DNA from: a virus
Lineage: Duplodnaviria; Heunggongvirae; Uroviricota; Caudoviricetes
Virus record (IMG/VR): IMGVR_UViG_2703718771_000002
DNA: 11,449 nucleotides
Direction: 5' to 3' (one strand)
The notes beneath the pieces were generated by a model that was given only the letters and a program-made list of their open reading frames with translations, was not told the DNA's origin and ran no database searches. Position 1 is the stretch's first letter. Each line of letters starts with the position of its first letter. The position numbers were made by a program, and so were the translations under genes. Shown one piece after another: positions 2,479-2,588 of the stretch.

Positions 2479-2588
2479 ATGCCCTCCATAGTAACCACGA
2501 ATAAAAAATACAATATGTACTTCTCAAATACAAGTAAAAATACACATTGTGCATGGATGGTTCCAGTACAGAGCGTAATAATAAGGAC
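2479..2588. promoter_or_regulatory. OR region: divergent PR/PRM promoters and repressor operators between cro and cI
   Basis: Candidate PR on the minus strand: -35 TTGTAT (complement of 2528-2533), 17-bp spacer, -10 TATTTT (complement of 2505-2510). Operator-like near-palindrome TACAATATGTAC at 2509-2520; its 15-mer context (2509-2523) recurs at pL with 14 of 15 matches in inverted orientation. Weaker related sites at 2541-2555 and 2563-2577. Candidate PRM -10 TAATAAT at 2576-2582 with a poor -35. Confidence 0.55.

What the first reader, a model, noticed from the sequence alone, without database searches (positions are those of the whole stretch)
2509..2523. Shared 15-mer operator candidate placed identically in PR and pL
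TACAATATGTACTTC at 2509-2523 is the reverse complement of GAAGTACATATTGTA, which matches GAAGTACATATCGTA at 4792-4806 in 14 of 15 positions. In both places the motif sits four bases after a -35-like hexamer and runs into the -10 (PR: TTGTAT, ttga, motif, TATTTT on the minus strand; pL: TTGACC, aagt, motif, TACTAT). The core is a near-palindrome of form TAC-N5-GTA. This defines the likely repressor recognition sequence for this immunity type and supports both promoter calls; weaker related sites lie at 2541-2555 and 2563-2577.
Basis: seen in the sequence. Interest (0 to 1): 0.5.

Follow-up and report, generated by a model that had tools for sequence, protein, structure and literature searches.

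The report
Known Stx-phage repressor operators OR1/OL1
The shared 15-mer is real and marks the two promoter-proximal repressor/Cro binding sites of a common lambdoid prophage immunity region (the type carried by the Sakai Shiga-toxin phage), but these operators were already predicted and annotated in the literature, so the finding is correct and ordinary.

Summary
The immunity region is 99.9% identical to Stx phages 1717, Stx1phi/Stx2phi-II and the VT2-Sakai type. GenBank AP005153 annotates six 17-bp "putative operators" there, and Yin 2015 Table S5 lists the same six (citing Fattah 2000).

New support comes from 33 OR and 37 OL natural variants. Half-site columns are polymorphic in 6/72 cases against 44/103 outside (p=4e-7).

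- OR1 is at 2507-2521, OR2 at 2539-2553 and OR3 at 2565-2579.
- OL3 is at 4736-4750, OL2 at 4769-4783 and OL1 at 4794-4808.

Salmonella phage ST64T (essentially phage L) has the same consensus and layout. cI (HTH N-domain fused to a lambda-identical C-domain) and Cro share the recognition helix TQG[G/A]IGHW.

Most likely mechanism: repressor or Cro dimers at OR1/OL1 occlude PR/pL, and OR2/OR3 control PRM. I found no cognate-protein footprint. Novelty: already known. One open point is that OR1-OR2 spacing varies (31-35 bp) while OR2-OR3 is fixed at 26 bp.

The parts
2507..2521 (.). OR1: AATACAATATGTACT, a perfect match to ARTACR-N3-YGTAYT (annotated as a 17-mer, 2506-2522). It lies in the PR spacer and overlaps the PR -10 by 4 bp.
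   Evidence: It is invariant in 33 variants except for A/G at 2512.
2539..2553 (.). OR2: AATACACATTGTGCA (2 mismatches to the consensus). Its centre is about -43 from the proposed PRM start and it abuts the PRM -35.
   Evidence: Only the central positions 2545/2546 vary among relatives.
2565..2579 (.). OR3: AGTACAGAGCGTAAT (1 mismatch). It lies in the PRM spacer and overlaps the PRM -10 by 3 bp.
   Evidence: It varies only at 2566 (G/A) and 2571 (central). Its distance to OR2 is fixed at 26 bp in all 34 variants.
4794..4808 (.). OL1: AGTACATATCGTACT, a perfect consensus match. It lies in the pL spacer and overlaps the pL -10 by 4 bp, the same geometry as OR1 in PR.
   Evidence: Apart from three single-variant changes, it varies only at central position 4800.
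4769..4783 (.). OL2: AGAACAAATTGTATT (1 mismatch). It overlaps the pL -35 by 2 bp and lies 25 bp from OL1.
4736..4750 (.). OL3: AATACAAAGCGTTGT (2 mismatches, with a degenerate right half). It lies 33 bp from OL2.
2505..2533 (-). Proposed PR: -35 TTGTAT (2533-2528), 17-nt spacer, -10 TATTTT (2510-2505), reading into cro.
   Evidence: Sequence and the AP005153 'putative major rightward promoter'. The TTG of the -35 and most of the -10 are invariant, and no indels occur in the spacer. It scores only 7/12 against consensus and was not picked up by the scanner. It has not been mapped experimentally.
2554..2582 (+). Proposed PRM: -35 TGGATG (2554-2559), 17-nt spacer, -10 AATAAT (2577-2582). The predicted start is at A2589 of an ATG, which would give a leaderless cI mRNA.
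   Evidence: AP005153 annotation. All 12 hexamer positions are invariant. The arrangement AATAAT + 6 nt + ATG recurs in ST64T and L010. This is inferred, not mapped.
4782..4810 (+). pL: -35 TTGACC, 17-nt spacer, -10 TACTAT, reading into N.
   Evidence: Found by the consensus scan and annotated in AP005153. The -10 is invariant.
2263..2478 (-). cro (71 aa), an HTH_3 protein with recognition helix TQGAIGHW.
2589..3248 (+). cI repressor (start at ATG 2589 or 2595). It has an HTH_3 N-terminal domain with helix TQGGIGHW and a Peptidase_S24 C-terminal domain almost identical to that of lambda cI.
5000..5272 (+). N antiterminator, the first gene of the pL operon.
   Evidence: (PF25694, E = 2e-31) and the annotation.

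Best explanation
The motif is the promoter-proximal operator of each early promoter (OR1 in PR, OL1 in pL) of a lambdoid immunity region of the VT2-Sakai / 1717 / Stx2phi-II / Nil2 type.

The recognition unit is a 15-bp dyad, ARTACR-N3-YGTAYT. It occurs three times between cro and cI and three times upstream of N.

Dimers of the cI repressor and of Cro carry homologous HTH_3 domains with the same recognition helix, TQG[G/A]IGHW. Each should place one helix on each ARTACR half-site.

OR1 and OL1 are the only perfect-consensus sites. They fill the spacer and overlap the -10 of PR and pL. Occupancy there should exclude RNA polymerase and shut off both early operons, which maintains lysogeny and gives superinfection immunity (inferred).

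OR2 abuts the PRM -35, centred near -43, which is the position from which lambda cI activates PRM. OR3 sits in the PRM spacer and -10, so cI at high concentration, or Cro, would turn PRM off (inferred by analogy and geometry).

The cI C-terminal domain is essentially lambda's. RecA-stimulated self-cleavage and dimer-dimer cooperativity are therefore expected to work as in lambda (inferred from near-identity).
For: 1. Both sequences and their identical promoter placement are confirmed.
2. The six sites equal the 'putative operator' features of AP005153 and the six PST1/Sakai operators in Yin 2015 Table S5.
3. Phylogenetic footprint over 33 OR and 37 OL distinct variants: half-site columns are polymorphic in 6/72 cases, against 44/103 in non-operator columns (Fisher p = 4e-7) and 6/18 in the central triplet. 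Nearly all recurrent half-site substitutions are transitions that stay inside the R/Y consensus; the exception is G/C at position 2 of OL2.
4. All four window hits with one or no mismatch to the consensus, and six of the eight with two or fewer, lie in the two control regions.
5. ST64T (>99.9% identical to phage L, PMC8022706) and locus L010 have related repressors with the same helix, the same consensus and the same spacing: OR 34/26, OL 25-26. Locus L011 has helix TQGALSHW and ATTACA half-sites. Lambda-type N-terminal domains have TATCACCGC sites.
6. cI and Cro are HTH_3 proteins, homologous to each other at E = 9e-12, with a shared recognition helix.
7. The cI C-terminal domain is nearly identical to lambda cI structures 3bdn and 8gmu.
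8. In the viral collection, clusters of three or more sites occur only in homologous control regions.
Against: - No footprint, EMSA or reporter data with the cognate cI or Cro were found. The only binding study used lambda CI, at micromolar apparent Kd (PMC10742460).
- PR is a weak consensus match (7/12) and none of the three promoters has a mapped start site.
- The consensus was derived from the same six sites it is then used to find, so one search is partly circular.
- The variants are phylogenetically related, so the Fisher test overstates independence.
- OL3 has a poor right half.
- OR1-OR2 spacing varies from 31 to 35 bp, which does not fit lambda-style OR1-OR2 cooperativity.
Confidence: 0.9

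Rival explanations
1. The two copies are similar because PR and pL share a promoter core, either by duplication or through constraint from RNA polymerase or a host factor on the spacer and -10. On this reading the shared sequence is not a repressor site.
For: The motif sits inside both promoters in identical register and overlaps both -10 hexamers. No binding data exist.
Against: The same dyad recurs at OR2, OL2 and OL3, which do not lie in a promoter spacer. Conservation follows a 6+3+6 dyad with a free centre, not a promoter pattern. The nucleotides between the -35 and the dyad are highly variable (2523-2526 and 4788-4790).
Confidence: 0.04
2. The sites are bound by only one of the two regulators (for example Cro), or by a different protein, and cI recognises some other overlapping sequence.
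For: Which protein binds has not been tested. cI and Cro are only 40% identical over the HTH region.
Against: The recognition helices are nearly identical (TQGGIGHW and TQGAIGHW). In L011 the helix and the half-site change together. No other repeated motif is conserved in the intergenic region.
Confidence: 0.05
3. The 14/15 match is a chance resemblance.
For: The window contains 20 pairs of 15-mers matching at 14/15 or better, against about 7 in shuffles. The 15-mer also has many isolated copies in the viral collection.
Against: Only 2 of 2000 shuffles of the OR and OL regions give such a pair. The promoter register is identical, there are six sites in two clusters, and the footprint is strong.
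Confidence: 0.01

Closest known systems
Predicted OR1-3 / OL1-3 operators of VT2-Sakai (Sp5), Stx1phi / Stx2phi-II (AP005153/AP005154), 1717 and Nil2. Sources: Fattah et al. 2000 Genes Genet Syst 75:223, as cited by Yin et al. 2015 PMC4587872 Table S5, and the GenBank features.
   Same: The sequences are identical. All six 17-mers in the window equal the annotated or published ones, within a region that is 99.9% identical.
   Different: Nothing differs in sequence. Yin's table labels the N-proximal sites 'OR' and the cro-proximal sites 'OL', the reverse of the gene order. The window's flanking early-left genes differ from those of the Stx phages, so it is a mosaic.
Phage lambda OR/OL genetic switch
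   Same: The gene order matches: N - pL/OL - (accessory gene) - cI - PRM/OR/PR - cro - cII - O. There are three dyad operators at each side. The first operator overlaps PR or pL, the second abuts the PRM -35 and the third overlaps PRM. The cI C-terminal domain is almost identical.
   Different: [quoted passage not shown] The centre-to-centre spacings are 31-35 and 26 bp at OR and 25 and 33 bp at OL. From memory, lambda's are about 24 and 23 bp. OR2 does not overlap the PR -35.
immC region of Salmonella phage L / ST64T (cII/c2 repressor and Cro)
   Same: The recognition helix is the same (TQGAIGHW/Y). The consensus is the same (for example AATACATTTCGTACT and AGTACATTTTGTATT). There are three OR sites spaced 34 and 26 bp and an OL pair spaced 25 bp.
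   Different: The repressor C-terminal domain is of a different type, and the DNA-binding region shows only about 71% DNA identity. The host is Salmonella. Cross-immunity with this E. coli type has not been tested, and I found no operator study.
Proposed operator WTACRAWWTGTAT of Salmonella phage epsilon34 (PMC2629481)
   Same: It has the same TACR-N3-YGTA core. The paper names L, VT2-Sa and Nil2 as the closest relatives of its repressor N-terminal domain.
   Different: The N-terminal domain is only about 50% identical, and the authors predict a different specificity. It too is a prediction.

Membership tests
Lambdoid cI/Cro operator sets (OR and OL) | Divergently transcribed cI-type repressor and cro genes flank OR, and a second site cluster lies upstream of N. 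| tested here: met
   cro is at 2263-2478(-), cI at 2589/2595-3248(+) and N at 5000-5272(+). Pfam gives HTH_3, Peptidase_S24 and N_peptide.
Lambdoid cI/Cro operator sets (OR and OL) | Several dyad-symmetric sites of one consensus lie in each control region. | tested here: met
   There are three sites at OR and three at OL with two or fewer mismatches to ARTACR-N3-YGTAYT.
Lambdoid cI/Cro operator sets (OR and OL) | The sites overlap the core elements of PR, PRM and pL. | tested here: inconclusive
   The overlap with consensus-type hexamers is clear and the hexamers are conserved. No transcription start is mapped, and PR scores only 7/12.
Lambdoid cI/Cro operator sets (OR and OL) | The repressor and Cro share DNA specificity. 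| tested here: inconclusive
   The HTH domains are homologous and the recognition helix is shared. Binding itself was not tested.
Lambdoid cI/Cro operator sets (OR and OL) | The cognate repressor and Cro physically bind the sites. | not testable with these tools
   No cognate footprint or EMSA was found in the searchable literature. Only lambda CI EMSA exists.
Lambdoid cI/Cro operator sets (OR and OL) | The sites are conserved among phages with the same repressor while the flanking DNA drifts. | tested here: met
   Polymorphic columns are 6/72 in half-sites against 44/103 outside, p = 4e-7.
VT2-Sakai / Stx2phi-II / 1717 immunity type | The cI-cro-OR-OL sequence is the same as in those phages. 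| tested here: met
   Identity is 99.9% over 2200-5000, and the six operators are identical.
Lambda immunity (imm lambda) | A lambda-type N-terminal domain and TATCACCGC-type operators. | tested here: not met
   Only the C-terminal domain matches lambda. Lambda-type loci L031 and L035 show TATCACCGC sites and this window does not.
Phage L / ST64T immunity | The same operator specificity, that is, homoimmunity. | tested here: inconclusive
   The consensus, spacing and recognition helix are the same. The proteins are diverged and cross-immunity cannot be tested here.

The most novel reading that the evidence does not exclude
The switch may be wired differently from lambda even though it uses lambda's own cooperativity domain. 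Across 34 OR variants the OR1-OR2 distance ranges from 31 to 35 bp, nearly half a helical turn. OR2-OR3 is fixed at 26 bp and OL1-OL2 at 25 bp.

If pairwise cooperativity needs the roughly 25-bp spacing, the cooperative pair at OR would be OR2-OR3, the PRM activator and PRM repressor sites, rather than OR1-OR2. OR1 would then act alone.

That arrangement would tie OR3 occupancy to OR2 occupancy and hold repressor levels low. This is the 'hair-trigger' behaviour that Koudelka and colleagues proposed for Stx prophages (PMC5977221).
Probability: 0.25. Interest if true: 0.5.

Novelty: already known. Interest (0 to 1): 0.15.

Why it matters
This immunity region controls induction of the Sakai-type Stx2a prophage, and therefore Shiga toxin release. 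Its OR region is present in 776 of 5,426 complete E. coli genomes. Knowing the operators matters for predicting cross-immunity and induction behaviour, but they have been in the literature and in GenBank since 2000-2003.

This analysis adds three things:
- comparative support for those predictions;
- a tighter 15-bp consensus;
- the observation that the operator spacing pattern differs from lambda's despite a lambda-identical cooperativity domain.

The cognate repressor and Cro still appear not to have been footprinted.

Tried and rejected
- **Half-site AATACAA.** I first thought AATACAA was the repeated half-site, with 6 copies against 1.9 expected. The copy at 2527-2533 varies among relatives and is the PR -35 read on the other strand. 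The copies at 1185 and 4630 lie outside the control regions.
- **'Bully phage' preprint.** Its Cro and operator model (10.1101/2025.01.01.630987) concern a different immunity type. That Cro has Arg32 and a 98-bp control region, whereas this one has Trp32 and 116 bp.
- **BAA2326 and 933W operator studies.** They also concern different repressors.
- **Original papers.** Fattah 2000 is not held in the library. A full-text search for the six operator strings found nothing.
- **Alternative PR.** TTTACT-17-TATTGT scores 8/12, but its -35 is not conserved and indels disrupt it, so I rejected it.
- **RNA.** Rfam gave no hit anywhere in the window.
- **Collection counts.** I used only the context of each hit.
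- **Structure prediction.** I ran none, because protein-DNA modelling is not available here.

Full report
**1. Observation**

Window 2509-2523 is TACAATATGTACTTC. Its reverse complement GAAGTACATATTGTA matches GAAGTACATATCGTA at 4792-4806 in 14 of 15 positions. No other site in the window matches, even with three mismatches.

- On the minus strand: TTGTAT (2533-2528), ttga, the motif, then TATTTT (2510-2505).
- On the plus strand: TTGACC (4782-4787), aagt, the motif, then TACTAT (4805-4810).
- Both have 17-nt spacers.

The consensus scanner found the second promoter independently. The first scores only 7/12 and did not pass.

A 14/15 match is not rare in itself. The window holds 20 such pairs of 15-mers, against about 7 in shuffles. 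Between the two control regions, however, only 2 of 2000 shuffles produce one.

**2. Context**

The gene order is O (823-1644, -), cII (1825-2121, -), cro (2263-2478, -), cI (2589/2595-3248, +), a 173-aa ORF of unknown function (3750-4271, +), an intrinsic terminator (4573-4594, +) and N (5000-5272, +). Pfam confirms Phage_rep_O, Phage_CII, HTH_3 (Cro), HTH_3 plus Peptidase_S24 (cI) and N_peptide.

**3. Already known**

Region 2200-5000 is 99.9% identical to Stx2 phage 1717, Stx1phi and Stx2phi-II of strain Morioka V526, and the PA4-type (Sakai-like) Stx2a phages.

The AP005153 record carries three 'putative operator' features at OR and three at OL, plus putative PR, PRM and pL. Mapped onto the window, the operators are:
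- 2506-2522, 2538-2554 and 2564-2580 at OR;
- 4735-4751, 4768-4784 and 4793-4809 at OL.

Yin et al. 2015 (PMC4587872) Table S5 lists the same six 17-mers, described as 'same as operator sequences in E. coli O157:H7 Sakai' and citing Fattah et al. 2000. Their L and R labels are swapped relative to the gene order.

The two distal OL sites were missed.

Later work used these sites only with the non-cognate lambda CI, at micromolar apparent Kd (PMC10742460). The companion paper states that no CI-DNA structure exists for VT2-Sa. I found no footprint or EMSA with the cognate proteins. The original Fattah paper could not be read.

**4. Independent comparative test**

From genome and viral collections I recovered 35 distinct OR and 39 distinct OL variants. 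Of these, 33 OR and 37 OL sequences that encode essentially the same cI and Cro were aligned.

Polymorphic columns (minor allele in at least two variants) by class were as follows.

| Column class | Polymorphic / total |
|---|---|
| Half-sites (positions 2-7 and 11-16 of each 17-mer) | 6 / 72 |
| Central triplet | 6 / 18 |
| Positions 1 and 17 | 5 / 12 |
| Non-operator intergenic | 44 / 103 |

Half-site against non-operator columns gives Fisher p = 4e-7.

The constrained unit is therefore 6+3+6 = 15 bp: ARTACR-N3-YGTAYT.

Nearly all recurrent half-site substitutions are transitions that stay within R or Y. The exception is G/C at position 2 of OL2. Examples of the transitions are A/G at 2512, G/A at 2566, C/T at 4745 and T/C at 4778.

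OR1 and OL1 are perfect-consensus sites in every variant but one; a single OL1 variant has one mismatch.

The AATACAA at 2527-2533 is variable and is the PR -35.

In the window, all four hits with one or no mismatch to the consensus, and six of the eight with two or fewer, lie in the two control regions. This scan is partly circular, because the consensus came from these same sites.

**5. Cross-lineage support**

- Salmonella phage ST64T is >99.9% identical to phage L (PMC8022706). Its repressor and Cro carry the helix TQGAIGHW/Y. It has AATACATTTCGTACT, AATACAATATGTGTG and AATACATCTCGTAAT at OR, spaced 34 and 26 bp. It has two copies of AGTACATTTTGTATT at OL, spaced 25 bp.
- Locus L010 has an 83%-identical cI and the same layout.
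- Locus L011 has helix TQGALSHW and ATTACA half-sites. Lambda-type N-terminal domains sit next to TATCACCGC sites.
- The epsilon34 genome paper groups the L, VT2-Sa and Nil2 repressor N-terminal domains and proposes WTACRAWWTGTAT for epsilon34.
- cI and Cro of this window are homologous (E = 9e-12) and share TQG[G/A]IGHW.

**6.

Of 121 retrieved, 19 lie in homologous cro/cI control regions with at least three clustered sites. The rest are isolated single copies with no cro or cI homolog nearby, as expected for any 15-mer in a very large database.

For the OL1 core, 57 of 120 hits lie in three-site clusters. The informative result is that clusters occur only in homologous control regions.

**7. 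Mechanism**

Shown here:
- six conserved dyads in two clusters that overlap consensus-type promoter hexamers;
- two HTH proteins with the same recognition helix;
- a cI C-terminal domain (residues 82-217) nearly identical to lambda cI structures 3bdn and 8gmu.

Inferred:
- cI dimers at OR1 and OL1, centred 4 nt upstream of the -10 in both promoters, occlude RNA polymerase at PR and pL.
- OR2 is centred about -43 from a predicted PRM start at A2589 and abuts the -35 TGGATG. This is the position from which lambda cI activates PRM.
- OR3 lies in the PRM spacer and -10 (AATAAT, 2577-2582). It would mediate negative autoregulation and Cro shut-off.
- RecA-stimulated autocleavage and dimer-dimer contacts should work as in lambda.

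None of the promoters has a mapped start, and no cognate binding data were found.

**8. One non-lambda feature**

OR1-OR2 centre distance varies from 31 to 35 bp among natural variants. OR2-OR3 is always 26 bp, OL1-OL2 is 25 bp and OL2-OL3 is 33 bp.

With a lambda-identical cooperativity domain, this suggests the cooperative pair at OR may be OR2-OR3 rather than OR1-OR2. That would fit the idea that Stx-phage repressors partly occupy OR3 and keep repressor levels low (PMC5977221). This is speculation and needs binding experiments.

**9. Verdict**

The feature is an ordinary lambdoid operator set, already predicted, annotated and reused in the literature, so its novelty is 'already known' and its interest is low.

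The control region is widespread, present in 776 of 5,426 complete E. coli genomes, and medically relevant. The window itself is a mosaic, with only 52-57% covered by any one Stx phage.

Noticed in passing
window 2589-3248 (cI): The repressor is a natural hybrid. Residues 82-217 are almost identical to the lambda cI C-terminal domain (3bdn, 8gmu), with Leu where lambda has Trp at one position. The HTH N-terminal domain is unrelated to lambda's and resembles that of phage L / ST64T.
   Followed up: partly
window 2577-2597: The PRM -10 candidate AATAAT is followed by exactly 6 nt and then ATG (2589). This predicts a leaderless cI mRNA starting MKMKWYEL, as for lambda cI. The same AATAAT + 6 nt + ATG arrangement is present in ST64T and L010. 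A second ATG at 2595 has an AAGGA 7 nt upstream, which would suit translation from a longer (PRE) transcript.
   Followed up: partly
window 2522-2538 and relatives L041-L120: Indels of 0-3 A residues between the PR -35 and OR2 make the OR1-OR2 spacing 31-35 bp across natural variants. OR2-OR3 (26 bp) and OL1-OL2 (25 bp) never change.
   Followed up: partly
window 3750-4271 (+) and 4573-4594 (+): A 173-aa ORF sits between cI and OL, in the position of lambda rexAB. It has no Pfam family and matches only phrog_2602 (unknown function). A strong intrinsic terminator follows it, just upstream of OL.
   Followed up: partly
window 2099-2112 (+): TTGCTGTAACTTGT fits the CII-binding pattern TTGC-N6-TTGY. 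It lies just inside the 5' end of the cII coding sequence (start codon at 2121, minus strand) and points toward cI, as lambda PRE does. The pattern count in the window is at chance level (2 against 1.6 expected), so only the position is suggestive.
   Followed up: partly
window 4809-4901: The region downstream of pL is about 90% identical to the annotated nutL region of phage 21 (H89). It contains a boxA-like GCTCTTTAAACAA (4857-4869) and a boxB-like hairpin TGGCTGAAAAGCCA (4888-4901). The minimum-energy fold did not single out that hairpin.
   Followed up: partly
literature: PMC4587872 Table S5: The published table labels the three N-proximal sites 'OR1-3' and the three cro-proximal sites 'OL1-3'. 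This is the reverse of the gene order in the window and in the AP005153 annotation.
   Followed up: yes
window 5300-11449: The early-left arm differs from the Stx phages that share the immunity region. No phage record covers more than 57% of the window, so the window comes from a mosaic lambdoid prophage. I did not identify the source genome.
   Followed up: no
window 2341-2355 and 11374-11388: Two further matches to the operator consensus, each with 2 mismatches, lie inside cro and near the window end. They are isolated and at the number expected by chance.
   Followed up: no
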